A DNA stretch of 64,000 bases from Eledone cirrhosa (Eukaryota), in the NCBI GenBank assembly GCA_964016885.1, contig OZ024765.1, positions 1,736,001-1,800,000 on the forward strand, given 5' to 3'. Made by a program: the position numbers and the translations under genes. The stretch's first letter is position 1. The number at the start of each line of letters is the position of its first letter. Positions 13,200 to 61,931 of this stretch are shown in pieces. The notes below the pieces were generated by a model. That model saw only the letters and a list, made by a program, of their open reading frames with translations, ran no database searches and was not told the origin of the DNA.

Positions 13200-13500
13200 T
13201 CTCTGTAAAGTTATGTTGGTGCCACACCATCCAGGCCGAAACAAATGAGATCGTGTAGGTGTCACGACAAAAAAACACACAGTCCACGCTGTAATGTGGC
13301 CGTGTAGGCAACACGGTAAAAACCTCCCAGCCCCACACTGTAAATGTGGTTGGTGTTAGGAAGGGCATCCAACTGTAGAAAACCTGCCAGCCAGTCCTAT
13401 GCGAGCAAGACAATCACTCTTGCCTCAAGTGGGACTACCCCCGTCCAAACCCATGCAAGCGTGGAACACGGACGTTAAACGTTGATGATGATGATGATGA
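13200..13500 (+). mobile_element. RTE-tailed non-autonomous retroelement; related copies 3228-3410, 4095-4230, 4700-5225, 5715-5870, 8270-8430, 11070-11180, 14895-15090, 21545-22155(-), 59385-61230(-)
   Basis: Shared ggtgttaggaagggcatccagctgtagaaa...acccatgcaagc.tggaa...gacgttaaacg(atg)n tail, the same tail type as the RTE 3' end at 5540-5595. Confidence 0.85.
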
Positions 13501-14077
13501 CATATATATATATATATATACCCACACACACATATATATATATATATACTGATAAATGTATGAAACGCCACAACTAAAAGATAGTCTGAGCATGTATGGC
13601 ATAACAAGTACTCAATACTAACTGTAAGGAATTCCAGAAACAGATTTCTCTGATACAGAATCAGTGGTGTAGTGGTAATATTGAACTAATTAATTAGCAA
13701 CAATTAATATAACTAACAACCAATCAATAATGAAATCAATTAATATAAATATTAAAAATATTGATGTATATATATATCTACAAATTAATTAAGGTTACCA
13801 ATAAGATTAATAATTAATTGTTTCTACTTTAGGCACAAGGCCAGCAATTACCCAGTTCATTACTGGTACTTTATTTTATCGACCCCGTAAGGATGAGAGG
13901 CAAAGTTAACCTCGGCGGGATTTGAACTCAGATCGTAAAGGGACATAACTATGTTGGAAAGCATGGCGTCCGACCCTCTACCGATACTGCCAATCCACCA
14001 AGATTAATAATTAATGAACATGTATCTCTGTGAGAGAATTAGAGCTAAAAGTCTATCTATCTACTTATCTATATCTA

Positions 14078-14570
14078 CTGCCAGCCTCTTTCAAAAACGA
14101 AAGTGAGGCGGTTTTCCTCTGTACGGTGGCTATGGTGAAAGAGGTTATATGGTGGATGAGATTGAGAGGACTGAGGACAGATTCCTTTCTCTCCAGACAA
14201 CAATTGATTCCCTTCTTTAAGTATCACTTTAGAAGGAGAATCAGAGTGGAGAGAGAGGCACTGCACCCCAGTAAATTTACTGAAAGGTGGGTGAATGGGG
14301 CCAAAATAGCACGAGTGATTGGGCCTTCTCTGTATATAAACCTGTAGGTTAAAGAAGGGAGCACTTGCACAACATGCTCCTGAAGTTGAGGGTTGTTCTA
14401 TCTACGGGGTATTAAACAACCCATTTGTGGCGCTTCCCCCCCTATTGGGGATTTCAATTGTTATAATTGTTTGTTTCAACATTTTTACACGATTGTATGG
14501 GAAATCCCCGGCATGTGTCTTTGTATTGTCCCCTTTTCTTGTGCGCCCTTGTGGCAAATAAAGAAATATA
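14078..14570 (+). mobile_element. L1/Tx1-like LINE 3' end
   Basis: ORF tail AMVKEVIWWMR...FFKYHFRRRIRVEREAL...FTERWV followed by a UTR ending in AATAAA at ~14557. Family assignment is from motif recall. Confidence 0.55.
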
Positions 14571-14574
14571 TCTA

Positions 14575-14617
<43 letters not shown>

Positions 14618-14638
14618 TATATATAGAGAGAGAGATAG

Positions 14639-14686
<48 letters not shown>

Positions 14687-14709
14687 TATATATAGAGAGA
14701 GAGAGATAG

Positions 14710-14745
<36 letters not shown>

Positions 14746-15247
14746 ATACAATAATATAAATATACACACATTTCCTATTATTGTAGTTGTAGTTGTGGGT
14801 AAAGGTCCTAAACTATGGTTCTGCTGTGAGGAGGGTTTGGTGCGGCCAACTAACCTGTCCTTTCTCATAACAGTGCCATCCACATCTGGTCCCACACTGT
14901 AAATGTGGTCGGTGTTAGGAAGGACTTCCAGCTGTAGAAATCTCTGCCAAATTTACAGTCCTGTCAGAGTAAAGTACGGCACGCCCAATCTTGGACAGAC
15001 TTGTCTCTCGCTCAACATGGACAGCCCGTCTAACCCATGCAAGCATAGAAAAATGGACGCTAAATGATGATGGTGATGATGACGATGATGGGAATTTCTT
15101 TGTTTAATTTAATTTATTTTATTTTATTTAAAAAAATTTTTTTTGCTTTATTAAAAACCCAAATTAACCCTTTTTCTCCATCCTCCCCGTCCTCGCCATC
15201 TCTGTCCCCTCTCTCTAATTTCTTTATCTATCTCCTCTAATTTCCAG

Positions 15248-15467
15248 CAACAAGAACAAGACCCCACCAACCTGTACATCGCCAATCTACCACAGTATTT
15301 CACGGAAGACCACCTGGATAATTTGTTTAAGGAGTACGGTACCGTGATCTCTACCAGAATCCTACGGAAAGTTGATGGCCAAAGTAGGGGTGTAGGATTT
15401 GCACGGATGGAGAACAAAGAAAAGTGTGAACAGATTATTCAGAACTTCAATTCCAAAATTTTGGCAG
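15248..15467 (+). CDS. shep: Alan shepard/RBMS-family RNA-binding protein, exon encoding RRM2 (first exon visible in window)
   Basis: Pyrimidine tract + CAG acceptor (15245-47) and GTAAG donor (15468). Translation [73 protein letters not shown] has the [10 protein letters not shown]...STRILR...SRGVGFARM signature of RBMS1-3/Shep RRM2. Phase 0 in, phase 1 out. Confidence 0.95.
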
Positions 15468-15479
15468 GTAAGGGCCAGT

Positions 15480-15760
15480 CACTCATGTGTTGTGTTCTTC
15501 TTCTTTGCCCACAAATTCCTGAGAGGGTCGTGGTGGCACAAAAATCGTCAAACCCTCCTTCCATCGGGTCCTGTCAGAAGCAACCGTCTCCAACTGATCC
15601 GGCTGGATCCCCAAGCAGGGCCAGCCAAGCTCATGGATGTTATCCAACCATCTTGCTTGGGGTCTACCCCTGGGTCTCCTGCCGGTTCGTTTTGCCCATA
15701 GAATTTGTCCAGCAATTGTTTCCTGAGACATTCTAATCTCATGTCTGTAATATCGGAGCT
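15480..15760 (-). mobile_element. LINE (RTE-like) 3' terminal fragment in short intron
   Basis: ORF ...[24 protein letters not shown]...ASDRTRWK is a typical non-LTR RT C-terminal GxRxRGRP motif. Confidence 0.75.
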
Positions 15761-15928
15761 TAAAAATATAGTAATGAAACGGTTAAAGTGTTTATATTTA
15801 TCTAAAAACCTTCCATCATAATTTTAAGCAGAAACCTTTGTTAAGTTATGCTCCAAACCATATATAATGTCTTTCATTATAAATCTGGTCGTGAAAGGGG
15901 TTAAAAGTTGTTGTGTTATCTTTTTCAG

Positions 15929-16047
15929 GAGGCAATGAACCTCTTCTAGTAAAGTTTGCAGATGGTGGCAGTAAAAAAAAAGCCCAGTATCAACAGAGTC
16001 GTTCCTGGCCAGAAAGAACTGATGCTAACAATTTTAGCTTTGTAGCT
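15929..16047 (+). CDS. shep: shep/RBMS exon: end of RRM2 (GNEPLLVKFADGGSKKKAQYQQSRSWPERTDANNFSFVA)
   Basis: ttttcAG acceptor and GTAAGT donor at 16048. EPLLxKFADGGxKK is the conserved RBMS motif. Phase 1 in matches the previous exon; phase 0 out. Confidence 0.93.
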
Positions 16048-16059
16048 GTAAGTACTCTA

Positions 16060-16093
<34 letters not shown>

Positions 16094-16450
16094 CTCAGAC
16101 CAGTAGTCTTGGTGCCTGGGTAGCTAGAGCACTTGACTAGCTCTATAATGCATATCTATGTATGGAGAACATTTGCCTTGCTCTACAATGTGTATCTGTG
16201 TATCTTGAGCACTAAACTAGTTCTACAATGTGCACCTGTGTATTTAATGCCCTAGGCAGGCTCTACAATGTGTGTGTGTGTATTTAGCACCCTTGGCTAG
16301 CTCTACAATGTGTGTGTTTGGGTATTTAGAGCCCAAGGCAGGTACTACAAAGTGCCCCATTTTCACAACTAAGATAATGTCAACTTAGAGTTCATTAAGT
16401 TGACGAACAGGAGGGGATTATGATGATGATGGTGATGATGTCTGTGATAT

Positions 16451-16685
16451 GTTACAATACAAGGTCCCCAAGATCTAACACCCCTCCCTATTGTTACAAC
16501 ACAAGGTCCCCAAGATCTAACTCACCTCCCTATTGTTACAACACAAGGTCCCCAAGATCTAACTCACCTCCCTATTGTTACAACACAAGGTCCCCAAGAT
16601 CTAACTCACCTCCCTATTGTTACAACACAAGGTCCCCAAGATCTAACACCCCTCCCTATTGTTACAACACAAGGTCCCCAGGTCT
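16451..16685. repeat. 42-bp minisatellite (~5.5 copies)
   Basis: gttacaacacaaggtccccaagatctaactcacctccctatt. Confidence 0.92.
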
Positions 16686-16736
16686 AAACCTCACACTCCC
16701 ACCACACAATTATAATTCTTTCTGGTTTATTTCCAG

Positions 16737-16780
16737 GGAATTCCTATGGGTTATGATCAATCAAACATCGCCCAGAATGG
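16737..16780 (+). CDS. shep: shep/RBMS 44-nt exon (GIPMGYDQSNIAQNG)
   Basis: ttccAG acceptor and GTAAGT donor at 16781. Resembles the RBMS G..YD...QNG segment. Phase 0 in, phase 2 out. Confidence 0.85.
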
Positions 16781-17096
16781 GTAAGTACTTTAAACTATTG
16801 TATTTTACATTTTATATATCAATATATATATATCAATATATATATATATAGATATATATATTGGGGTGGGGATAAGTTGAAAGTTGTGAGAGTATTAGTT
16901 TATATATATATTAATTAAAATAACAGATTAAAGTTTAAGCAAAGAATCGCTGCTTTCACCCTTAACGGGATCTTCTGAAATAAATATTTGCTCTACGGTT
17001 CTTATATATTTGATATATATTTATCCTTATCGAGCCCTCTTTGGATTTTAATCTTCACATTTATTATTATTACTATATATATATATATTTATATAT

Positions 17097-17520
17097 AACG
17101 AAGGAAATGTGGTAAGGAACCAGATGGACCATAACGCACCAAAGTACTCAATACTTAGGGTAGTAGAGTGGGTAATGGGAACGAGTATGACCCCGACGGC
17201 TGAGCTCAAGCCGTTTCGACGGCTAATTCTGAACTGAATTAGCCATTGAAACGGCTTGAGCTCAGCCGTCGGGGTCCTACTCGTTCCTATATATATATAT
17301 ACATATATATATATAGGAAAAAGTATGACCCCGACGGCAGAGCTCACGCCGTTTCGACGGCTATTTCTGGACGGAAATAGTCCAGAAACAGCCGTCGAAA
17401 TGGCTTGAGCTCTGCCGTCGGGGTCATACTTTTTCCTATTTCCCCCTCTACTACCCTAAGTATTGAGTACTCTGGTGCGTTATGGTCCATCTGGTTCCTT
17501 ACCACAACTCCTTCATTATC
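17097..17520. mobile_element. Two head-to-head copies of a hairpin-containing repeat; relatives 17920-18065, 23640-23830, 40722-40800, 59010-59190
   Basis: Shared arm gaagga..tgtggtaaggaaccagatggaccataacgcacca.agtactcaatac plus ~110-bp near-perfect hairpins (17177-17288, 17314-17438); all embedded in (TA)n. Confidence 0.85.
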
Positions 17521-18168
17521 TATATATATATATATATAGTGGTGGAACACTGGAAGGTAATATCCGAAGTGGTAGAGCACTCAGTCCAAGGGACGAGTTA
17601 GGTAGAAGTGGTAACACAACAGTTAGTTCACCATACCGAGAACAAATGTTTCACCTTAGCGGATCTTCTCTATAAACACATATACACACATATAGAGGTA
17701 ATTAGTTACCTCATTAAATTTCATACTAATTAGTATAGTTGTAGGGCCACAGTATTTGTAAGGAGTGGGGTGGGGTAGTCTTTTTATTTGGTCTGTTATA
17801 TTGATGGTGGTGGTGGTGGTGGAGGGGACCCACTGGCATATATTGTGTCTATATAGCATCTTCTTCTCTCTTTGTGTGTGTGTGTGTAGATATATATACA
17901 CACACACACACACAGATAAAGAGTCAGAACTCGACAGCTGAGCTCTTGCCGTTTCAACAACAGCTAGTTCCAGAGTGGAACTAGCTGTTGGCAAGAGCTC
18001 AGCTGTCGGGTCCCAACTTTTTATAATCTAACCATGCACTACTACCTCAAGTATTGAGTACTCCGTTGAGTAATAGTGTAATATATGTATAAATGGATAA
18101 ATGTACTGTACTCAACTTCTTAATATCCTGAACCACATGAAACCACATTAGCAAGACATTCTTGAAAA

Positions 18169-19025
18169 GTACAAAACAACACTATGACTACATCACATTA
18201 AATATTAAAGTCTTTACTGTAATACTGTAAATATTCACAACAATCTGTCCACTAGTAAAGATACTATAAACATTTAGTACAAAACAATACTATGACTACA
18301 TCACATTAAATATTAAAGTCTTTACTGTAATACTGTAAATTTTCACAACAATCTGTCCACTAGTAAAGATACTATAAACATTTAGTACAAAACAACACTA
18401 TGACTACATCACATTAAATATTAAAGTCTTTACTGTAATACTGTAAATTTTCACAACAATCTGTCCACTAGTAAAGATACTATAAACATTTAGTACAAAA
18501 CAACACTATGACTACATCACATTAAATATTAAAGTCTTTACTGTAATACTGTAAATTTTCACAACAATCTGTCCACTAGTAAAGATACTATAAACATTTA
18601 GTACAAAACAACACTATGACTACATCACATTAAATATTAAAGTCTTTACTGTAATACTGTAAATATTCACAACAATCTGTCCACCAGTAAAGATACTATA
18701 AACATTTAGTACAAAACAACACTATGACTACATCACATTAAATATTAAAGTCTTTACTGTAATACTGTAAATATTCACAACAATCTGTCCACTAGTAAAG
18801 ATACTATAAACATTTAGTACAAAACAATACTATGACTACATCACATTAAATATTAAAGTCTTTACTGTAATACAGTAAATATTCACAACAATCTGTCCAC
18901 CAGTAAAGATACTATAAACATTTAGTACAAAACAACACTATGACTACATCACATTAAATATTAAAGTCTTTACTGTAATACTGTAAATATTCACAACAAT
19001 CTGTCCACCAGTAAAGATACTATTA
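18169..19025. repeat. 108-bp tandem repeat (~8 copies); same family at 32594-33238 (~6 copies)
   Basis: gtacaaaacaacactatgactacatcacattaaatattaaag... period 108 at both loci. Confidence 0.93.
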
Positions 19026-20697
19026 ATCTTTGAATCAACAAACCTAGTCTTTAGACAGTTCCTACATCATTGCAGGATTTTAGGAATTAAGTTACACCAT
19101 AAACCTTCAAATATTAAATTATTTTCTCTCATTTTAACTAAACAAAAATATCACAAGTTTCTAATTTAGTCTTTTGAGTTCCTATTTTTAAATATTGTCC
19201 TTTTTTCTTAGAGTATTCATATATTTTATATATAAAATATGTGTCTATATATATATATTGAGAGAGAGAGTAGACCCTGTTTGATCGGAGCTTGGCATCT
19301 GGAAAATTCTTTGCTGAGGTACAAGCCTGGTCAAGGTGTTTTTGTGGAAGACCAACAGTCACCCTTGCATACCAGTCTCCTCCTCTCCAGGCCACTGATG
19401 ATGTCCAAGGGAAAGGCAATGGCTAATACAGCTTGGCACCAGAGACATCACAATATACACACTATGTATAGTATATATACACTATATATACATTATATAC
19501 ACACATTATATATACAGTATATATACACATTATATACATTATATACACACATTATATATACAGTATATATAGGATGTTGTCTATATAGATGTACACTATA
19601 TAGGATGTTGTCTAAGGCAATGGCTGATACAGCCTGGCACCAGAAACATTGCAGCGCATATATACACTGTATATATATTATATATACACTATATATACAT
19701 TATATACACACTATGTACAGTATATATACACTATATAGGATGTTGTCTAAGGCAATGGCTGATACAGCCTGGCACCAGAAACATTGCAGCTCATATATAC
19801 ACTATATATATTATATATACACTATATATACATTATATACACACTGTGTACAATATATATGCACTATAATCCCAGAGGGAAGTGCATGGCTGATTGGTTA
19901 GAGAACTGGATTCACAATTGTGAGGTTGTGAGTTCAATTCTCAGACCGGGTGATGCGTTATGTCCTTGAGCAAGACACTTTATCCTACGTTACTTCTACC
20001 TGGAGATGCAACTGATAGATAGTATTAGCAATTGGAAAGACCAATGGAAACCTTGTTTCAATCGACTCTCCATGTATATATTTTTTATATACACTATGTA
20101 CACTGGCGAGAAACCTATCAATGTTAAATAAAGTTATATGTATATGTGTGTATATCTATATATATGTATATATATTTATATGTATATATATATGTATATG
20201 TGTGTGTATCTATATATATGTATATATATTTATATATATATGTATATGTGTGTATATATATGTATATGTGTGTATATATATATGTATATGTGTGTATATC
20301 TATATATATGTATATATATTTATATGTATATGTATATGTGTGTATATCTATATATATGTATACATATTTATATGTATATGTATATGTGTGTATATGTGTG
20401 TATATGTATATATATGTATATATATTTATATGTATATATATATATATGTATATGTGTGTATATATATATATATATGTATATATATTTATATGTATATATA
20501 TATGTATATGCGTGTATATCTATATATATGCATATATATTTATATGTATATGTGTGTATATATATATATACATATGTATATATATTTATATGTATTGTGT
20601 GTACATCTATATATATGTATATATATTTATATGTATATATATATATGTATATGTGTGTATATCTATATATATGTATATATATTTATATGTATATATA

Positions 20698-20740
<43 letters not shown>

Positions 20741-20834
20741 ATATATCCCTTTCTATCTATATCAATAGATAGATATCTCTCTTCTCTCTCGCTATGTATA
20801 ATATATATATATATATAATATATATATATATATA

Positions 20835-20875
<41 letters not shown>

Positions 20876-20906
20876 ACTCCACAACTTACCGTGTATATCT
20901 CTGTGA

Positions 20907-21018
<112 letters not shown>

Positions 21019-21027
21019 ATATATATA

Positions 21028-21070
<43 letters not shown>

Positions 21071-21071
21071 A

Positions 21072-21105
<34 letters not shown>

Positions 21106-21133
21106 CTGGAGCCCACAACTTACCGTGTATATC

Positions 21134-21170
<37 letters not shown>

Positions 21171-21307
21171 TCCTATCCTCTCCTCCCTCCCACCACCACC
21201 ATGTTTGTGCCTCTCTCACTACAGCTCCTATTGATGTTGTTGTTGTTGTTTGTGTCTCTCAATCATGTTTGTGGTTGATGGAGTGGCACATGCTTATAGA
21301 TGTACAG

Positions 21308-21512
21308 TCTTTATCTGCCTTACAGTGTGGGGGCAGCAGCCCCAGGGGGGGGTGCAGCCACAGCAGGAGGTGGAGCTGTTGCCACGGCGATGATTCCGGC
21401 CGGTATGATGCCTCGCTATTCCATGTCAACGACCCCTGTCACCACGTACCAAGTCCAGTCCAATCCAGCCTGGATGCACCATACACAGTACATTATTCCA
21501 CCCCTTCCACAT
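21308..21512 (+). CDS. shep: shep/RBMS exon ([15 protein letters not shown]...[26 protein letters not shown]); alternative in-frame start at 21326
   Basis: [14 protein letters not shown] resembles RBMS1 PVSAYQVQSPSWM (recalled). GTGAGT donor at 21513. Two phase-2-compatible CAG acceptors end at 21307 and 21325. Confidence 0.85.
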
Positions 21513-21650
21513 GTGAGTATGCAAACATCTTTATATATACACATATCATCATCATCATCATCATCATCGTTTAACGTCCGTGTTCCATGCTTGCATGGGT
21601 TTGGACGGGGGTAGTCCCACTTGAGGCAAGAGCGGTTGTCTTGCTCGCAT

Positions 21651-22105
21651 AGGACTGTCTGGCGGGTTTTCTACAGTTGGATGCCCTGCCTAACACCAAC
21701 CACATTTACAGTGTGGGACTGGGAGGTTTTTACCGTGTTGCCTACACGGCCACATTACAGCGTGGACTGTCTGGCAGGTTTTCTACAGTTGGATGCCCTT
21801 CCTAACACCAACCACATTTACAGCGTGGGGCTGGGAGGTTTTTACCGTGTTGCCTACACGGCCACATTACAGCGTGGACTGTCTGGCAGGTTTTCTACAG
21901 TTGGATGCCCTTCCTAACACCAACCACATTTACAGTGTGGGGCTGGCAGGTTTTTACCGTGTTGCCTACACGGCCACATTACAGCGTGGACTGTCTGGCA
22001 GGTTTTCTACGGCTGGATGCCCTTCCTAACACCAACCACATTTACAGTGTGGGTCTGGGAGGTTTTTACCGTGTTGCCTACACGGCCACATTACAGCGTG
22101 GACTG
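21651..22105. repeat. 112-bp tandem repeat (~4 copies) within RTE-tailed element
   Basis: ggactgtctggcaggttttctacagttggatgccc... period 112. Confidence 0.9.
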
Positions 22106-22662
22106 TGTGTTTTTTTTTGTCGTGACACCTACACGACCTCATTTGTTTTGGCCTGGATATATATAATAATAATGAAATTATTGTGTACAGTGCTCAGGTG
22201 CACTACAACTCATCAAAGGTGCATGTATAGTACATAGAATAATGTACAAATGTCAGGAAAATGAACAGTGTATGAGTCATGATATAATAACAACAACAAT
22301 AATGAAATATTGTGTACAGTGCTCAGGTGCACCACAACTCATCAAAAAAAGTGCATGTACAGTACATAGGGCAATGCACAAACATCAGTAAAATGAACAG
22401 TGCACGAGTCATGATACACACATGTGTGCATGTGTATGGAAGGGGTACATCAGGTGTAGTTTTGGCGTATTTCGGGAAGCATGAGTGTCTTAAAGGATGC
22501 AGTGTCTCGGCAGCTAACAATTGACGCAGGCAGTTTGTTCCATGCTTCAGCAACTCTGAGCGTGAAAAAATGTCTACGAAAGTCATGGGAGCTGTGCTGT
22601 TTTCTGATCATATATATATATACGATATTAACAAATGGAAACTATATTTATAAAACCATATT

Positions 22663-22727
22663 TATTTCATTATACATATTTCAAGGACACCAAGTTAAAT
22701 TATGGTGTGCTTTCATCAGATAAAATA
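22663..22727 (-). ncRNA. Minimal type-I hammerhead ribozyme motif
   Basis: Reverse complement TATTTTAT-CTGATGA-AAGCACACCA(taatttaact)TGGTGTCCTT-GAAA-TATGTA-TA^ATGAAATA. Confidence 0.8.
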
Positions 22728-23454
22728 TAATATAGATCAGTTTTATAAATAAATATTGACATACCCTTAGAGAATGCAACCATTGCTGTTGGAAGCTCCC
22801 TCTCATTCTTTAAGGGTATGTCAATATTTATTTATAAAACTGCTCTATATTATATTTTATCTGATGAGGGTGGTGGATTGGCAGTATCGGTGGAGGGTCG
22901 GACGCCATGCTTTCCAGCATAGTTATGTCCCTTTACGATCTGAGTTCAAATCCCGCCGAGGTTCACTTTGCCTTTCATCCTTACGGGGTCGATAAAATAA
23001 AGTACCAGTAATGTACTGGGCATTTACTGGCCTTGTGCCAAAAGTAGAAACAGTTATATGTATGGCCAGTGCCTTTGGTTGGATGTTTTTTTTTGTGTCA
23101 CACTTTTCTGTATAACTGTTGTTTACTCTGGACCTGATGTATTGAGTGCCTTGTCATTGCCTCAAATGAATCGAAGATGTACTTGTTGTACAACAGCTAA
23201 AACTTCGATTTATACCTATTATATATATATATATATATATATATTGGGTATATGTTGGTTGTTTACCGACACCTCAGTATGCAGATTGGAGCACTCGACG
23301 AAGTACGCAGGTTGGTTTGTTTACTCCGGAGTATGATTCCAGTTCCTCGGAGGAATAACTACACACCCAGGAGCTGGACATATCGATGTATTGACGGAGT
23401 AAAACACACTTCAACAACATGTGTACCTGTCTTTTCCACACCAATTCGGACTGC

Positions 23455-23507
23455 CTGCCCGAAGAGGTCACAGCCAAAGATGGCTGTCACCGAAATATAT
23501 ATAGCAG
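23455..23507 (+). ncRNA. Hammerhead motif with one core substitution (CCGAAGA)
   Basis: CTGC-CCGAAGA-GGTCACAGCC(aaagat)GGCTGTCACC-GAAA-TATATA-TA^GCAG. Confidence 0.72.
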
Positions 23508-23571
23508 TAATTTTTAATTTATAATAAACGAAGCCAAATTTTACATATTTGACTTAATTATTTTATATATG

Positions 23572-23637
<66 letters not shown>

Positions 23638-23858
23638 CATTGAGGACTCCTACAGCTGAACTCCGGTCGTTTCAACAGCTAGAACTGAACTAAGCCACCA
23701 GGATTAGAACAGCAGGAATCTAGCTGAACTTATCAGCTGTTAGGGCCCTGAATCTTTTTACATTACCCACTGTAACGAGTGCTCTGGCACGTTATGGCCC
23801 ACCTGGTATCTTACCACACCCTTTTTGTTATATATATATATATATATAATGAAAGTGA

Positions 23859-24120
23859 AGGCGCATGGCTTAGTGGTTAGAGCATTGGGCTTGCAATCGA
23901 AAGGTTTTGAGTTCAATTCTCGGACCGGGTCATGTGTTGTTTCCTTGAGCAAGACACTTTATTTCACGTTGCTCCAGTTTACTCAGCTGTAGAAATGAGA
24001 TGAAGAGGTACCGGCCTGCCCACCCAGCCAGAGAGATGGCGTTATCTTATGGCTAAAACATGACGTGCTGTGACTAGCAGCGCCGAATCGACGCCCGACA
24101 GACTGGTCGGTGAAGGTGAT
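23859..24120 (+). mobile_element. tRNA-derived SINE family B (CORE/V-like); other copies 5875-6017(-), 11590-11737(-), 19880-20070, 25479-25567, 39720-39830, 50524-50736
   Basis: tggcttagtggttagag A-box, gagttcaattc B-box, tccttgagcaagacactttatttc central domain. Confidence 0.88.
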
Positions 24121-24131
24121 ATATAATTACA

Positions 24132-24326
24132 TAATAAAGAAGACAATATAATTATTTCATTACCAATGGCTTCAACAATCTAGATGAATCTTGCAAGGAA
24201 TATCCAGTTCATTTGTCAGACAACATAATTATTTTATCTGACAAATGTATTGGATATTCCTTGCAAGAATCGTCTAGTCTCTTGAAACCTTTGGTAAATG
24301 GAATAATTATATTGTGTTCTTTATTA
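24132..24326. mobile_element. Fold-back element with degenerate hammerhead-like motif in each arm
   Basis: ~95-bp inverted arms. + arm: ttttat-CTGACAA...GAAA-CCTTTGG-TA-aatggaata. - arm: CTGACAA...GAAG-CCATTGG-TA-atgaaata. Confidence 0.65.
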
Positions 24327-24755
24327 CATATTTAACTGGCTCTGTACAATACATAGAGCACTCCTTTTTCCTTTATCTTTTCTATGGAAATGTTTAATAT
24401 ATATATATATATATATATAAAGAGTAAATACATTCTTGTATGAATATATACATATATATAGACCTTCTACATGTGAGTATACATACATTCATTCATGCAT
24501 GCATAGTTATATTCATAGATACATACCTATATGTATGTATATATATATATATATATATATACCGTCTTACATGTGACATGTATACATATGTATATACATA
24601 CATGTGTGAAGGTGTGTGTGTGTGAGTGAAGGTGTATGTATGTGTGTGTCTGTGTGTGCATTATACCATGTATATTTTCATTCTATTTCCACTCACTTTA
24701 CCTCCCTCCCTCCCTCACACTTCTATTGTCTCTATCGCTCCCCGACCCCTTACAG

Positions 24756-24860
24756 ATGATACCTAATACGGTCCATCCTGGAAGCCACACTCTTGATCCC
24801 AGTTCTGTAATGCCGACCCTTACAACCCAGATGGGACAACTCCAGCTGTCCAACACTTCG
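24756..24860 (+). CDS. shep: shep/RBMS exon (MIPNTVHPGSHTLDPSSVMPTLTTQMGQLQLSNTS)
   Basis: Pyrimidine tract + tacAG acceptor, GTACGT donor; 105 nt, phase 0/0. LTTQMGQLQL resembles the RBMS L.QQM.HLSL motif. Confidence 0.87.
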
Positions 24861-25743
24861 GTACGTTAACCACAGTTTTCTTGTTTCATCTTTCTAACCC
24901 CTGCAACTGCTTCTTCTGCTGCCATCATAGAAACCTGAGGGTCTGAACCCTTGGAGAGCAGATAGGACACTGCCCAGCATTTTTAAGACCTACAGGAATG
25001 CTATGATAGAAACTTAGAGAAGGCATGAACCCTTGGAGAGGGGATAGGACACAGTCTAGCATTTCTAAGGTCCACTGGAATGTTATGAGGAACTTAGGGA
25101 GGGGTTGGACACAGTCTAGCATTTCTAAGGTCCACTGGAATGTTATGAGGAACTTAGGGAGGAGATGGGCCAAAATACCGTGATGGACACGAGGGACTGG
25201 ACACTTGATGTGAAGGACACTGCCAAGTATTTCTAATGTTCACTGAAATGCCATGATGGGCAACAGAGTAAAGCATTTAGAGTGGCACCCTATGTTGGGT
25301 TATATTGGAGTTTACCAATATATGTCCTGATAAAGATTATAGAAGCTCTATGTTAATCAGTATCCTTGGTCGGGCAGTAACTGAAAAAGGTTGAGGGAGT
25401 TTTTATCCTCAGTAAATTCCGCTATAGACTTTTATCACACAGACTGCAGAGCTCAAAATTTAATAAATTTAGACTTATAAGGCACATGGCTTAGTGGTTA
25501 GAGTGTTGGGTTTGCAATCAGGAGGTTGTGAGTTCAATTCTTGGACCAGATGATGCATTGGGTCCCTTGTGGGAGAGATTAAGGGACCAGAATCTATTGA
25601 TCATAGACTCAGGTCTGTCCTTCCTTTGTGGGTGAGGTTAAGGGGAGATAATCTATTTGTTGGATGTGATTTTCTGTTACAGGTTCAAAACCCAGACTTG
25701 GTCCCTAGTAATGTTTTTTTTTTTTTTTTGTTTCTCTTGACAG

Positions 25744-25827
25744 TACGTCTCTGGGCCACATGCAACCTATACTCAAATCCCTTACCAACCCCAAGGTGGT
25801 GCCGTAGTACAAACAGTTCCTGTTGAG
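25744..25827 (+). CDS. shep: shep/RBMS exon (YVSGPHATYTQIPYQPQGGAVVQTVPVE)
   Basis: Long poly-T + gacAG acceptor, GTAAGT donor; 84 nt, phase 0/0. Ends in VPVE as in RBMS1. Confidence 0.88.
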
Positions 25828-26765
25828 GTAAGTGCCCCCACCCCGGGGGAAATCTTTATTTCTGTTTACTAATTTAAAAATTTTAATTTTTTTAATACAT
25901 ATTCAGTATTTCAGAATTCCTTTGGAAGTGGGGTTTGCAGGGGTTTATATATAGTGGCCCCTGTGGAGGGGTGGAGGGTTTTTATATACTGGTCCTTTGA
26001 GAGGGGAGTTGCAATGGAATATATATAAAGTGGTTTCTTTGGAAGGGTGGGGGAAGGAGTTATATATAGTGGTCCTTTGAAAGGGGTAGAGGGCAGGGGT
26101 TAGTGACCCTTTCGGTGGAGTTGTAGTGGAATATATATAAAGTGGTCCCTTTGGAAGGGTGGGGGAAGGGATTATATATAGTGGTCCCTTAAGACGGGGG
26201 TGGAGGGCAGGGGTTAGTGACCCTTTCGGTGGAGTTGTAGTGGAATATATATAAAGTGGTCCCTTTGGAAGGGTGGGGGAAGGGGTTATATATAGTGGTC
26301 CCTTAAGACGGGGGAAGTGACACACTGGGGTCGTTTAAATTGACCCTCCCCAAAATTGCTGGCCTTGTGCCTATGTAAGAAACTATTATTAGGGCAGCGG
26401 ATTGTCAGTAGCAGTAGAGGGTCGGACGCCATGCTTTGCAGCATAGAGTTACGGCCCTTTACGTTCTGAGTTCAAATCACGCCGAGGTTAACTTTGCCTT
26501 TCATCCTTACGTGGTCGGTAAAATAAAGTACCAGTAATACACTGGGGTAATTGCTGGCCTTGTGCCTAAAGTTATTATTATTTCATTTATATATCCTTTA
26601 TTTATAGTGGTTTTTTTTTTTTGTTGGTGCGGGGTGGGGAAGATTATCCCCCCCCCCCCCCCCACCTCACCCCACGCACGTTAGTTGTAGTTGTTTATTT
26701 TAATTTTTTTTAAATCTTTTTTTGTTTTTGTTTGTTTTTTTTTTTTATTATTTTGTCTGTTGTAG

Positions 26766-26846
26766 GAGCATAACCCACCTCCAGTAGGGAATGATGAGGG
26801 TCAGCATCATTTCCAGACATACCAGACAGCCCCCCCTCCCAAGTAG
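26766..26846 (+). CDS. shep: shep/RBMS last coding exon (EHNPPPVGNDEGQHHFQTYQTAPPPK*)
   Basis: Long T-rich tract + tgtAG acceptor; in-frame TAG at 26844-26846; phase 0. Confidence 0.82.
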   Translation, partial: EHNPPPVGNDEGQHHFQTYQTAPPPK

Positions 26847-31142: not shown

Positions 31143-34100
31143 GCGAACTGTTTTACGATATTTCTTCTTGGTTTGTTTGTTGGTTTTTCTTTCTTTTTTT
31201 GTTGTTGTGTGTCTGTTCGAATCCTGCCTAGGGTGGACTTCACCTTTTTTTTTTATTCACCATGGGGCCGGTTGGGGGAGGGGAGCAGGGAGGACTGGGT
31301 TTGACAAGGTACCTGCCATATAATTGGGTTGACGGGGGGGGGGGGGGGATTGGGGTCGATTTAAATTGACTGTACACCCACCATCCCCCCCTCGCAAAAA
31401 GTGGAAACCATTGTTGTCATTTTATTGTGGGTTGGCAGTATCGTTAGAGGGTCGGACGCCATGCTGTGTGGCATAGAGTCATGGCCCTTTACGGTCTGAG
31501 TTCAAATCCCGCCGAGGTTAACTTTGCCTTTCATCCTTACGTTCGATAAAATAAAGTTCGATAAAATAAAGTACCAGTTATACACTGGGTAATTGCTGGC
31601 CTTGTGCCAAAAATAGAAACAATTATTATTATTGTCGTTAATACATCAGATGAAATGCTTTGATGTTAATTTGTTCTGGCTGTTTACATAACTTGGGTTC
31701 AAATCCCTCCACGGTCAACTTTGCCTCTAGGGGGATCCGATGACATAAAGTACCAGTTGCGTACTGGGCGAGGGCGTGGTCGATGTGTTCGACTTTCCCC
31801 TCTCCTGCTCCTTCCCCTCGTCCCTTCCAGAATTGCTGGCCTTGTGCCTTCCAGCAAAGTTACGTCCCTTTACGGTCTGAGTTCAAATCCCGTCGAGGTT
31901 AACTTTTCCTTTCATCCTTACAGGGTCGATAAAATAAAGTACCAGTAATGCACTGGGGTAATTGCTGGCCTTGTGCCAAAACTAGAAACAATTATTATTA
32001 TTATTAATGATATCATCTCCATTGTTCTTAGTAGTATTATTTCAAAGAATTTTTATGTAAAAAAAAAATGACACAAACAAAAAAAAAATTGTTTTGGGTT
32101 TTTTTTTTTTTTTTTTTTAGAGGGCTATGGGTGTGGGGATAGCTGAAGGGGTGGGGGAACGATAAGGTTACCTCCCTTTCTAACTGGAGTTTTTTGTTTT
32201 TTTTTCTTTTTGTTAATTTTATTTTATTTTTATTGTTTGTTTGTTGTGAGAGAAACGAGGCAAAGGAAGAAAGAAAGAAAGAAAGAAAAAAACCTGAACA
32301 TTATTATTATTATTATTTTTTTTATTTGGTGGTATGCTACCCTTCTGTCGTTCCCCTTCTTCCCTCTTTCACCCGTTCACAAAAATATCCTGGCTCCCAA
32401 CTTTTTAAGACAAACTCGCCTCCCTCTTTCTTTCTTACAAAAAAGAAAAAAAAAACATATAAAAATAAAAATGTTAAAAAAACCCCCAAAAAACTGCTGA
32501 GGGTTTTAATCCTTTCGTGGCGATGTTTCCAGTGAGATACGCCCTCGACATCTTGTAGGACATTATACCACATTAGCAAGGCATTCATGGAAAGTACAAA
32601 ACAACACTATGACTGCATCACATTAAATATTAAAGTGTTTACTGTAATACTGTAAATTTTGACAACAATCTGTCCACCAGTAAAGATACTATAAACATTT
32701 AGTACAAAACAACACTATGACTACATCACATTAAATATTAAAGTGTTTACTGTAATACTGTAAATTTTGACAACAATCTGTCCACCAGTAAAGATACTAT
32801 AAACATTTAGTACAAGACAACACTATGACTACATCACATTAAATATTAAAGTGTTTACTGTAATACTGTAAATTTTGACAACAATCTGTCCACCAGTAAA
32901 GATACTATAAACATTTAGTACAAGACAACACTATGACTACATCACATTAAATATTAAAGTCTTTACTGTAATGTTGTAAGTTTTCACAACAATCTGTCCA
33001 CTAGTAAAGATACTATAAACATTTAGTACAAAACAACACTATGACTACATCACATTAGATATTAAAGTCTTTACTGTAATACTGTAAATTTTCACAACAA
33101 TCTGTCCACCAGTAAAGATACTATAAACATTTAGTACAAAACAACACTATGACTACATCACATTAAATATTAAAGTCTTTACTATAATACTGTAAATGTT
33201 CACAACAATCTTTCTAATAATAAAGAGACTATAAATATTTGAATTAACAAACCTATTTTTAGATAATTTTCATTTTCTGTTAAATTATTACAGGATGTTA
33301 AGAATTTTAAGGGATTTAGTAAAATTATTAATTATTTCATTACTAAGTTAGTAACTTAACTTATGATTATGTTGACAGTTTTTAATTTCAATAGAAACCT
33401 TTTTAAATGGGTTTTATTTCTCATAACTAGAGTAAGTTTTGGCCAGGTTGGTAACAAAAGGGTTAAAATTTCAAAGCACCCCTTGACACACACAAACACA
33501 CCCACCCTGTCCATACACTCCTGATCCCAGCTCTTATCTTTCCTTCTTTCTCTATCCCTCTTTTTTTTTTATTATTCCTGCCCCCCTCAAGAAAACGAAA
33601 TTAAGGGGAAAAGAAAAAAAAATGTATATTTTCTTTAGGGAGGGGGTCGGCTAAAAAAAAATGAAAAGATGAAAAAAAAAGTTTTGCTGATAATTTCAAT
33701 TTTTTTTTTAATTTTCCTTCATTTTGTGAATAAGAAACCGAAAATTTCCCCCACTCCCCGCAGATTCCTTTTGTCTCCCTCTCTCTTGAAAAAAAAAAAG
33801 CAACTGATAAATTCTTTTCTGTTTTATCTTTAATTTTTTTTTTTTATTTTAAATTTAAATTTCACTTTTTTTAAAAAAAAAAAAAAATTAATTTTTTCTG
33901 TTACACTTTCGTTGTACTTTGTTTTTGTTTTTTTTTCCCCTGTGTTTTTTTTTGTTTATTTTTCAAATTTAAATTTATTGATTTTTTTTTTTAAATTTTT
34001 TTTTACTGAATAATAACTATTTTAAAAAACGACAAATCTTTTTTTTTTCTTTGATATACATATGTATATATATACATGTGTGTATATATATGTGTATATA

Positions 34101-59222: not shown

Positions 59223-59536
59223 CCCTGCGATCAGTTATGAGGAATCTTGTATTCTCAGTCTACACGTAGAGTGCTTTTCCTACTATTACATCATGGTTAA
59301 CTATACGGCATAACCAGTTCTATCCAGTGGTGAAACACCAACTTCAATGAATATATATATATATACACACACACATATATATATCGTCATCGTTTAACAT
59401 CCATCTTCCATGCTAGCATTGGTTAGATGGGTTTGTCCCATTTAGAGGCAAGTTGGGTCGGGCGACCGTGTCTCGCTCATATAGGACTGTTTCTGGTTAG
59501 TTTTCTACGGCTGGATGACATTCCTAGTGCTGACCA

Positions 59537-61190
59537 CATTTACAGTGTGTACTGGGAGCCTTTTGTTGTGACACCTACATGGCCACTTTACAGTGTGTAC
59601 TGGGAGCCTTTTGTTGTGACACCTACATGGCCACTTTACAGTGTGTACTGGGAGCCTTTTGTTGTGACACCTACACGACCACTTTACAGTGTGTACTGGG
59701 AGCCTTTTGTTGTGACACCTACATGGCCACTTTACAGTGTGTACTGGGAGCCTTTTGTTGTGACACCTACAAGGCCACTTTACAGTGTGTACTGGGAGCC
59801 TTTTGTTGTGACACCTACATGGCCACTTTACAGTGTGTACTGGGAGCCTTTTGTTGTGACACCTACATGGCCACTTTACAGTGTGTACTGGGTGCCTTAT
59901 GTTGTGACACCTACAAGGCCACTTTACAGTGTGTACTGGGAGCCTTTTGTTGTGACACCTACATGGCCACTTTACAGTGTGTACTGGGAGCCTTATGTTG
60001 TGACACCTACAAGGCCACTTTACAGTGTGTACTGGGAGCCTTTTGTTGTGACACCTACATGGCCACTTTACAGTGTGTACTGGGAGCCTTTTGTTGTGAC
60101 ACCTACATGGCCACTTTACAGTGTGTACTGGGTGCCTTATGTTGTGACACCTACAAGGCCACTTTACAGTGTGTACTGGGAGCCTTTTGTTGTGACACCT
60201 ACATGGCCACTTTACAGTGTGTACTGGGAGCCTTATGTTGTGACACCTACAAGGCCACTTTACAGTGTGTACTGGGAGCCTTTTGTTGTGACACCTACAT
60301 GGCCACTTTACAGTGTGTACTGGGAGCCTTTTGTTGTGACACCTACATGGCCACTTTACAGTGTGTACTGGGAGCCTTTTGTTGTGACACCTACATGGCC
60401 ACTTTACAGTGTGTACTGGGTGCCTTATGTTGTGACACCTACAAGGCCACTTTACAGTGTGTACTGGGAGCCTTTTGTTGTGACACCTACACGGCCACTT
60501 TACAGTGTGTACTGGGAGCCTTATGTTGTGACACCTACAAGGCCACTTTACAGTGTGTACTGGGAGCCTTTTGTTGTGACACCTACAAGGCCACTTTACA
60601 GTGTGTACTGGGTGCCTTATGTTGTGACACCTACAAGGCCACTTTACAGTGTGTACTGGGAGCCTTTTGTTGTGACACCTACATGGCCACTTTACAGTGT
60701 GTACTGGGTGCCTTATGTTGTGACACCTACAAGGCCACTTTACAGTGTGTACTGGGTGCCTTATGTTGTGACACCTACAAGGCCACTTTACAGTGTGTAC
60801 TGGGAGCCTTTTGTTGTGACACCTACATGGCCACTTTACAGTGTGTACTGGGAGCCTTTTGTTGTGACACCTACAAGGCCACTTTACAGTGTGTACTGGG
60901 TGCCTTATGTTGTGACACCTACAAGGCCACTTTACAGTGTGTACTGGGAGCCTTTTGTTGTGACACCTACATGGCCACTTTACAGTGTGTACTGGGAGCC
61001 TTTTGTTGTGACACCTACAAGGCCACTTTACAGTGTGTACTGGGAGCCTTTTGTTGTGACACCTACATGGCCACTTTACAGTGTGTACTGGGAGCCTTTT
61101 GTTGTGACACCTACATGGCCACTTTACAGTGTGGACTGGGAGCCTTTTGTTGTGACACCTACATGGCCACTTTACAGTGTGTACTGGGTG
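59537..61190. repeat. 48-bp minisatellite (~34 copies) inside an RTE-tailed element
   Basis: tttacagtgtgtactgggagccttttgttgtgacacctacatggccac periodicity; flanks continue as the retroelement. Confidence 0.95.
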
Positions 61191-61442
61191 TTCTGTGGTA
61201 CCAACATAATTTTACAGAGAAAGGGTGGTGTGGGCAGAAGTGTGAAGATGGAGTAGGGGTAGTGGGTTGGAGTGTATATTGGGTTAAGAGGTGCCTACTG
61301 ACTGTAGGTTTAAGTATGAGTTATTTGTTTTGTTGATTATTCAACAAAGTTAATTTATAACAGTTTAGAAGCACTCAACAGTATTTCTGGATTATAATAT
61401 CAATGATATTAAATAAATAGAAACTATATATAAAACCATATT

Positions 61443-61503
61443 TATTCTATTATATATATTTCAAGGGTACCAAGACTTTGGTACGCTTTCATCAGATAAA
61501 ATA
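61443..61503 (-). ncRNA. Minimal type-I hammerhead ribozyme motif (mirror arm)
   Basis: Reverse complement TATTTTAT-CTGATGA-AAGCGTACCAAagtcTTGGTACCCTT-GAAA-TATATA-TA^ATAGAATA. Confidence 0.85.
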
Positions 61504-61621
61504 CAAAGTTTGTTTTATAAATATTTGACATATCCAGGAAGAAGATCTTAACGGTTATCCAGGAAAAACTTGAACCGTTAAGATCTTCCTGGCTATGTCA
61601 ATATTTATAAAACGAACTTTG

Positions 61622-61682
61622 TATTTTATCTGATGAGAGCGTACCAAAGTTTTGGTACCCTTGAAATATATATAATAGAATA
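61622..61682 (+). ncRNA. Minimal type-I hammerhead ribozyme motif
   Basis: TATTTTAT-CTGATGA-[GAGCGTACCAA agtt TTGGTACCCTT]-GAAA-TATATA-TA^ATAGAATA; intact core, stems I and II pair, palindromic stem III. Confidence 0.85.
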
Positions 61683-61931
61683 AATATGGTTTTATAAATA
61701 TAGTTTCTATTTATTTAATATCATTGATATATATATATAGATGTATATATAGATGTATATATAGATGTATATATAGATGTATATATATATAGATGTATAT
61801 ATAGATGTATATATATATAGATGTATATATATATAGATGTATATATATATAGATGTATATATATATAGATGTATATATATATAGATGTATATATATATAG
61901 ATGTATATATATATAGATGTATATATATATG

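What the first reader, a model, noticed from the sequence alone, without database searches (positions are those of the whole stretch)
22625..23507. Covarying hammerhead family with a conserved C-C mismatch in stem II
Seen: three loci with different primary sequence keep the same fold. Stem II is AAGCGTACCA/TGGTACCCTT (61.5 kb), AAGCACACCA/TGGTGTCCTT (22.7 kb) and GGTCACAGCC/GGCTGTCACC (23.5 kb). All pair except a C-C mismatch at the 4th position, and all have GAAA-TATRTA-TA. The compensatory changes argue for selection on RNA structure. Inference: the invariant C-C may be a tertiary-contact or protein-binding site defining an undescribed hammerhead sub-class.
Basis: partly seen in the sequence, partly recalled or inferred. 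Interest (0 to 1): 0.8.

Follow-up and report, generated by a model that had tools for sequence, protein, structure and literature searches.

The report
Octopus retroelement hammerheads with C·C mismatch
Four hammerhead-type RNA motifs, predicted to cut themselves, sit in short repeats in an octopod genome that are likely broken ends of Penelope-like retroelements, a known arrangement; their one oddity is a C·C mismatch shared by two repeat families with unrelated flanks, which may be functional but is untested.

Summary
The window has four type I hammerhead motifs, not three (22719-, 23459+, 61495-, 61630+). All have a 10-pair stem II broken only by C·C at pair 4 and a near-palindromic stem III; 0 of 200 shuffles give one. 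They are only two lineages: the 61.5-kb pair are arms of one insertion, the 22.7-kb copy belongs to their family, and the 23.46-kb copy has unrelated flanks. That copy's core is broken by a private 4-nt insertion, but reads show a high-copy family with a canonical core (97-100%) and no C>G change listed at 3% or more in three of four runs. The host is an octopod. Head-to-head truncated arms, (TA)n flanks and 3'-biased depth point to Penelope-like element ends, whose dimer-dependent hammerheads are published; no element ORF was found. Stem pairing is clearly selected. Selection on C·C itself is only suggested: chance retention is about 0.03-0.05 for unconstrained sites, up to about 0.4 if it drifts like a pair. 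It is absent from 56 published element hammerheads. Verdict: new variant of a known kind; a functional role is open and cheap to test.

The parts
22663..22727 (-). Hammerhead A, type I: stem I 8 bp, core CUGAUGA at 22719-22713, stem II 22712-22683 with C·C at 22709/22686, GAAA, near-palindromic stem III, AUA triplet; predicted cut after 22671. Antisense to the host gene.
22624..22868 (.). Family 1 insertion with head-to-head arms. The left arm carries A and ends in (TA)n at about 22606-22622; the right arm (22814-22868) stops just after its CUGAUGA box, so it has no second complete ribozyme.
   Evidence: arms match at 53 of 54 columns
22867..23060 (+). High-copy dispersed repeat abutting the truncated right arm; 7 other near-full or large copies in the window. 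Its identity as a cephalopod SINE is recalled, not tested.
23250..23333 (-). Inverted 3' tail of the family 2 element next to (TA)n. In other copies this stretch follows the ribozyme-bearing part on the same strand.
   Evidence: opposite-strand joints 23333 to 23511/23556; loose ends
23333..23565 (+). Family 2 element body, truncated, ending in (TA)n at 23564. High copy: 2838 contigs laid in X1, depth about 10 times higher on the ribozyme than upstream.
23450..23508 (+). Hammerhead B, type I: core at 23459-23465 broken in this copy by a 4-nt insertion (canonical in the family), stem II 23466-23491 with C·C at 23469/23488, GAAA, palindromic stem III, AUA triplet; predicted cut after 23503. Sense to the host gene.
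61443..61503 (-). Hammerhead C, family 1, left arm of an inverted repeat; C·C at 61485/61466
61622..61682 (+). Hammerhead D, family 1, right arm; G·U at the first stem II pair; C·C at 61640/61659
61393..61735 (.). Family 1 head-to-head inverted insertion with 3' ends facing outward; the right end runs into a TA-rich microsatellite
21516..24755 (+). Intron of an RBMS/shep-like RNA-binding protein gene that holds hammerheads A and B; flanking exons at about 21306-21515 and 24756-24863

Best explanation
These are four type I hammerhead motifs with a 10-pair stem II interrupted by C·C at pair 4, lying in truncated copies of two repeat families in an octopod genome that are likely the 3' ends (pLTRs) of Penelope-like retroelements, where they are predicted to cut the element's RNA only as dimers. 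Mechanism, by step. Shown: core boxes, three helices, compensatory changes, high copy number for family 2, and C·C as the family state. Inferred: target-primed reverse transcription into (TA)n left 5'-truncated and inverted copies; the monomer cannot close stem III well (about 3 kcal/mol worse than leaving it open), so two ribozymes of a tandem transcript pair their AUAUAUAU palindromes and cleave after AUA, perhaps helped by the element's protein as shown for the anole element. The C·C was inherited from the ancestor of both families and has probably been kept by weak selection as a flexible, protein- or stem I-accessible break three pairs above the core; it lowers stem II stability by 6-7 kcal/mol. 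I put a C-specific function at about 0.3, the need for any break at about 0.3, and neutral inheritance at about 0.4. The copies in this window are most likely inert leftovers.
For: Motif reality: 4 found, none in 200 shuffles; 9 of 16 pairs change on both sides, against 0-1 in slid controls (the structure was derived from these four rows, which favours it). Family state: core canonical in 97.3% (X13), 99.9% (X1) and 100% (X4, X6) of depth; no C>G place listed at 3% or more anywhere in the 307 nt in X1, X4 or X13. Retroelement anatomy: depth 10-fold higher on the ribozyme than upstream in X1, many opposite-strand joints, (TA)n at outer ends. This matches PMC8557442 (inverted 5'-truncated copy, optional tail, (TA)n targets; passages) and PMC4209133 (long helix II, palindromic helix III, opposite-strand pairs 100-700 bp apart; first two of four parts of the text). 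Dimer need. Protein assistance precedent: PMC11167929 (second part of the main text). Host: exon 92-93% identical to Octopus and Argonauta RBMS proteins; Penelope-like elements cover 6.83% of O. vulgaris in 190 families (PMC13282606 supplement row).
Against: No reverse transcriptase or GIY-YIG match among 72 of the 248 frames that passed my length and complexity filter and were sent to Pfam, so the parent element and its clade are unidentified. No cleavage or expression data. Only two independent lineages carry C·C. The lack of C>G in reads shows only that no sizeable subfamily within 80% identity repaired it; C>G is absent at all places in those runs, so it is no test of selection. Published element hammerheads mostly have an extra base before a G10.1-C11.1 pair, whereas these have A-U, G·U or G-C there with no extra base. 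Rfam gives no hammerhead match at E up to 10.
Confidence: 0.75

Rival explanations
1. The C·C is a selected, C-specific contact: a 1x1 internal loop that docks stem II on stem I or binds the element's protein, standing in for the loop-loop contact that minimal element hammerheads lack.
For: Kept in two families whose flanks do not align while 5-7 of 9 neighbouring pairs turned over; one substitution would gain 6-7 kcal/mol; chance retention 0.025-0.05 at the flanks' C content. It sits at pair 4, about where the short stem II of canonical type I hammerheads (4 bp) ends. The anole element's hammerhead cleaves only with its protein.
Against: Two lineages only; pairs 7 and 9 are invariant too; no conserved partner base is evident in stem I, which is 8 bp in family 1 and 4-5 bp in family 2. 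Both C bases are predicted unpaired, with no alternative helix (pairing probability 0.05 or less). No assay.
Confidence: 0.3
2. The C·C is a neutral ancestral quirk, carried along because both families descend from, or swapped in, one ribozyme module whose stem II is stable enough without that pair.
For: A and B share four consecutive stem II bases around the mismatch and the same stem III. If pair 4 turns over like a Watson-Crick pair, retention is 0.22-0.44. Published element hammerheads tolerate a mismatch at this pair: U·U and C·A in 2 of 56 rows (my reading of Fig. S3 of PMC4209133).
Against: Unpaired neutral sites should decay faster than paired ones, and the flanks are already unalignable. 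The other stem II cells are 36 of 36 paired.
Confidence: 0.4
3. The constraint acts on the opposite strand or on DNA, for example a G·G-containing hairpin in the cDNA used during priming, and the hammerhead is incidental.
For: The antisense hairpins are predicted more stable with RNA parameters (-9.6 to -17.0 against -7.9 to -13.5 kcal/mol). An earlier unchecked note proposed DNA folding for a mismatch hairpin in another pLTR (e1-7271742).
Against: The catalytic boxes lie on the C·C strand. The tolerated variants are G·U on that strand (first pair of stem II in D and in about half of family 2; stem I), which would be A·C on the other strand.
Confidence: 0.05
4. The repeats are non-autonomous retrozyme- or SINE-like units that circularise through the hammerhead, not truncated ends of autonomous elements.
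For: Many family 2 contigs begin at 23332-23335 with diverse sequence upstream, which would fit a unit of about 320 nt; no ORF was found. Animal retrozymes are proposed to derive from element pLTRs (preprint 10.64898/2026.07.22.740005, abstract and first of five parts).
Against: The copies are single and inverted, not head-to-tail tandem arrays; no tail-to-head joint is among the 15 of 25 joints shown; depth falls toward the 5' side.
Confidence: 0.15

Closest known systems
Minimal type I hammerheads in pLTRs of metazoan Penelope-like elements (Cervera and de la Pena 2014, PMC4209133; Lunse et al. 2017, not held, known only through reviews and recall)
   Same: Type I topology, longer than usual helix II, weak palindromic helix III implying dimers, AT-rich flanks, dispersed truncated copies, opposite-strand pairs 100-700 bp apart. 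The closest listed rows are the D. willistoni, M. japonicus and S. kowalevskii(2) motifs with a palindromic helix III and A at position 17.
   Different: Helix II has 10 pairs (at most 8 in the 56 listed rows) with C·C at pair 4 (0 of 56; two rows have another mismatch there; read by eye, and that paper's descriptor may have disfavoured mismatches). No extra base after A9; first pair A-U, G·U or G-C. No cephalopod among the 56 rows.
Endonuclease-positive Penelope-like elements that insert in microsatellites (Neptune, Hydra, Naiad; Craig et al. 2021, PMC8557442)
   Same: Inverted 5'-truncated copy next to the main copy, optional tail, (TA)n at the outer ends.
   Different: No ORF here, so the clade is unknown. 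Short-motif searches of that paper's supplement found no consensus with this ribozyme (line breaks can hide matches), and Naiads are said to lack canonical hammerheads.
Canonical type I hammerheads of animal non-LTR retrozymes (PMC7229834; Schistosoma type; accession RF00163 is recalled)
   Same: Same core; dimer-dependent weak helix III in amphibian members; a helix II mismatch is known in one family (U·U at the base, axolotl HHR_Amex2).
   Different: Those have a 4-bp helix II with conserved loop contacts and lie in tandem arrays; these have 10 pairs, are dispersed, and match no Rfam hammerhead model.

Membership tests
Hammerhead ribozyme, type I | Core CUGANGA ... GAAA ... UH | tested here: met
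   A, C and D canonical. The window copy of B is not (4-nt insertion), but its family is canonical in 97-100% of depth.
Hammerhead ribozyme, type I | Three helices around the core, stem I open-ended, with covariation | tested here: met
   four rows, two lineages
Hammerhead ribozyme, type I | Match to an Rfam hammerhead model | tested here: not met
   No hammerhead family at E up to 10 in 22620-23560 or 61570-61715
Hammerhead ribozyme, type I | Self-cleavage 3' of position 17 | not testable with these tools
   Needs an in vitro assay or RNA 5'-end data
Minimal hammerhead of Penelope-like elements | Long helix II and short palindromic helix III | tested here: met
   10-pair helix II; the 8-mer self-pairs (-3.2 kcal/mol in B, C, D; -2.2 in A); monomer closure costs about 3 kcal/mol
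Minimal hammerhead of Penelope-like elements | Extra base between A9 and a G10.1-C11.1 pair | tested here: not met
   First pair is A-U, G·U or G-C directly after A9; two published rows (M. japonicus, S. kowalevskii(2)) also lack the extra base
Penelope-like element | ORF with telomerase-like reverse transcriptase and GIY-YIG endonuclease | tested here: inconclusive
   No match in 72 of 248 candidate frames; the copies are only 250-340 nt long and no whole genome is held
Penelope-like element | 5' truncation with an inverted copy, optional tail and microsatellite target | tested here: met
   All three insertions are head-to-head with a (TA)n or TA-rich run at one or both outer ends; 3'-biased depth and opposite-strand joints in family 2
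Non-LTR retrozyme | Head-to-tail tandem units each with a hammerhead | tested here: not met
   No tandem array with score 100 or more covers the four motifs
Proposed C·C sub-class | C·C conserved across many independent families | tested here: inconclusive
   2 of 2 lineages here; no homologues in the viral, prokaryote or metagenome scans

The most novel reading that the evidence does not exclude
Octopod Penelope-like elements carry a hammerhead sub-class, invisible to Rfam, in which a fixed C·C loop three pairs above the core is the docking or protein-binding site that switches on cleavage. It would give a defined handle on how minimal element hammerheads, which lack loop-loop contacts and barely cleave alone, are activated.
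Probability: 0.3. Interest if true: 0.62.

Novelty: new variant of a known kind. Interest (0 to 1): 0.42.

Why it matters
How minimal hammerheads of Penelope-like elements reach useful cleavage rates is open: they lack known tertiary contacts, cleave poorly in vitro, and one needs the element's protein. A fixed mismatch in an otherwise fully covarying helix is a natural candidate for such a contact and needs only a few point mutants to test. The motif also escapes Rfam, so a high-copy ribozyme family in octopod genomes may be uncounted. If the mismatch proves neutral, this is an ordinary new member of a known class.

Tried and rejected
No whole genome is held, so no genome-wide alignment or R-scape-type test was possible.

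Rfam: the whole-window scan listed 150 of 417 matches, all microRNA models on simple repeats; local scans gave no hammerhead. A model built from the four motifs found no further copy in the window.

Sequencing runs: no RNA holder listed, which is no evidence on expression. Reads were laid only on family 2; 62 of 102 difference rows were hidden, so exact shares at 23469 and 23488 are not known, and C>T there (also two C>A-type possibilities in X13) at a minor share is not excluded. X6 lists two C>G places that are not shown. The depth step in X13 near 23443-23446 coincides with many read ends in a RAD library, so I did not use it.

Coding constraint on the C bases: rejected; the frame from the AUG in CUGAUGA is short, differs between A and C/D, and is absent in family 2 (read). 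Alternative pairing of the C bases: not predicted. U4C as a natural core variant in B: rejected, private insertion. Link to the published octopus Naiad consensuses: no motif match.

Literature: eight searches showed no paper on a C·C in hammerhead stem II; the only paper holding both 'hammerhead ribozyme' and 'C-C mismatch' was on DICER, and one search returned none. Lunse et al. 2017, the largest set of these variants, and the supplements of PMC7229834 and of the 2026 preprint could not be read and may already show this variant.

Full report
Observation. The quoted stems are in the sequence. A loose scan found four long-stem hammerhead motifs: A (core at 22719, minus), B (23459, plus), C (61495, minus) and D (61630, plus), plus one short-stem core in a tandem array at 52369. 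A descriptor asking for at least 8 stem II pairs with at most one mismatch finds exactly these four, all with C·C at pair 4, and none in 200 shuffles that keep dinucleotides in 1-kb blocks. On their alignment, 60 of 64 cells of the stated structure pair; the 4 exceptions are the C·C. Nine of 16 pairs change on both sides, against 0-1 when partners are slid. That structure was derived from these rows, so the controls flatter it.

Independence. C and D are two arms of one inverted insertion (141 of 145 aligned columns identical). A belongs to the same family (116 of 131 against D). B's flanks show no convincing alignment to them (the best of these comparisons was matched by 38 of 1000 shuffles). 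So there are two lineages. Within family 1, A and C differ in stem II by four substitutions that form two adjacent compensatory pairs; by chance this is about 0.001, good evidence that pairing is selected. Between families, five to seven of nine pairs differ; pairs 7 and 9 and the C·C are invariant.

The third locus. B reads CCGAAGA in the window. I laid four runs on 23250-23556 at 80% likeness: X1 2838 contigs, X13 6718 reads (same species label), X4 19 and X6 5 contigs (two other species labels). T at 23460 or a 4-nt gap at 23457, which both give the canonical core, account for 99.9%, 97.3%, 100% and 100% of depth, so this copy has a private insertion. Position 11.1 is C or U in about equal shares in X1, X4 and X13 (all U in X6), giving G-C or G·U. 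Neither C of the mismatch is among the 40 difference rows shown (62 hidden; the rows shown reach a share of about 25% or more in some run), and the tallies for X1, X4 and X13 list no C>G place at 3% or more in the whole stretch; X6 lists two, not shown. C·C is therefore the family state and no sizeable subfamily has repaired it. This is not a test of selection, since C>G is absent everywhere in those three runs.

What the repeats are. The host is an octopod: an RRM exon is 92-93% identical to Octopus and Argonauta RBMS proteins, and A and B lie in an intron of that plus-strand gene. All three insertions are head-to-head with 3' ends outward and a TA run at one or both outer ends. In family 2, depth in X1 is 10 times higher on the ribozyme than upstream, and 23250-23333 is an inverted piece that follows the ribozyme in other copies. 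PMC8557442 describes this anatomy for endonuclease-positive Penelope-like elements (passages). PMC4209133 describes their hammerheads as type I with long helix II, palindromic helix III and opposite-strand pairs 100-700 bp apart (parts 1-2 of 4 of the text and parts 1-2 of 3 of the supplement). No RT or endonuclease match was found in 72 of 248 candidate frames, so the assignment rests on anatomy and the clade is unknown.

How it likely works. Closing stem III in a monomer costs about 3 kcal/mol, while the 8-mer self-pairs, so cleavage after AUA is predicted in dimers from tandem transcripts, as reviewed in PMC6765202 and PMC7761336 (passages). The anole element's hammerhead cleaved only with its protein and was not needed for insertion in vitro (PMC11167929, second part of the main text). 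The window copies are probably inert: A is antisense to the host gene, B is broken, and C and D would pair with each other.

The mismatch. It costs 6-7 kcal/mol against either repair, and both C bases stay unpaired in the predicted ensembles. If they were unconstrained and saturated like the flanks, both staying C has probability 0.025-0.05; if the site turns over like a pair, 0.22-0.44. The feature was also picked after the fact. G·U variants on the C·C strand argue that the sense RNA is what folds. In the 56 published rows I counted by eye no C·C in helix II, two other mismatches at pair 4, and at most 8 pairs. I put C-specific function at 0.3, need for any break at 0.3, and neutral inheritance at 0.4.

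Novelty. Rfam has no match. Pattern scans of viral, prokaryote and metagenome collections gave only chance hits. Eight literature searches showed no report of this mismatch, but Lunse et al. 2017 was not held (known through reviews and recall) and the supplements of PMC7229834 and the 2026 preprint were unreadable. Other papers were seen as passages only (PMC7229834, PMC6962438, PMC13725137, PMC13282606, PMC3088659) or by supplement search only (PMC10085705). Earlier scan notes held nothing on this genome or sequence; two notes on other genomes supplied rival ideas, copy-specific decay and DNA-strand folding, which I tested on this locus but not on theirs.

Verdict: a real, new variant of a known kind; interest 0.42.

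Noticed in passing
window 51906-52401: Tandem array of 106-bp units (4.3 copies). Units carry a CUGACGA-like box, a 5-pair stem and GAAA, like a hammerhead core, but no stem I forms next to the core and Rfam gives no hammerhead match. Possibly a decayed retrozyme-like array.
   Followed up: partly
window 10452-26843, + strand: RBMS/shep-like gene with at least seven exons, 92-93% identical to octopod proteins in the RRM exon. The sense-strand intronic hammerhead (B) is the one with a broken core; a single case, so only anecdotal.
   Followed up: partly
window 61393-61735 and 22713-22868: The head-to-head arms would form long double-stranded RNA if transcribed, burying the ribozymes; a possible A-to-I editing substrate in a cephalopod (inference from general knowledge).
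   Followed up: no
window 22862-22868: The right arm of the family 1 insertion ends exactly after the CUGAUGA box, where the SINE-like repeat begins; the rest of the arm is not found behind that repeat.
   Followed up: partly
flanks of A and D (about 22645-22750, 61603-61700): Family 1 has a further outer helix of 10-12 predicted pairs that extends stem I beyond an internal loop or bulge in A and D; a candidate docking partner for stem II.
   Followed up: partly
run X6, behind 23457: Two contigs continue from the family 2 upstream sequence and core box into a different, self-complementary sequence, not the C·C stem; junction or other subfamily, unresolved.
   Followed up: no
window 17200-17440: Palindromic element with a (TA)n centre and internally repeated GC-rich arms, MITE-like.
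   Followed up: no
window 4702-5078, 21652-22106, 59534-61188: Related 48-bp and 112-bp minisatellites recur at distant sites, one in the opposite orientation; a 108-bp array recurs at 18168-19023 and 32593-33240.
   Followed up: no
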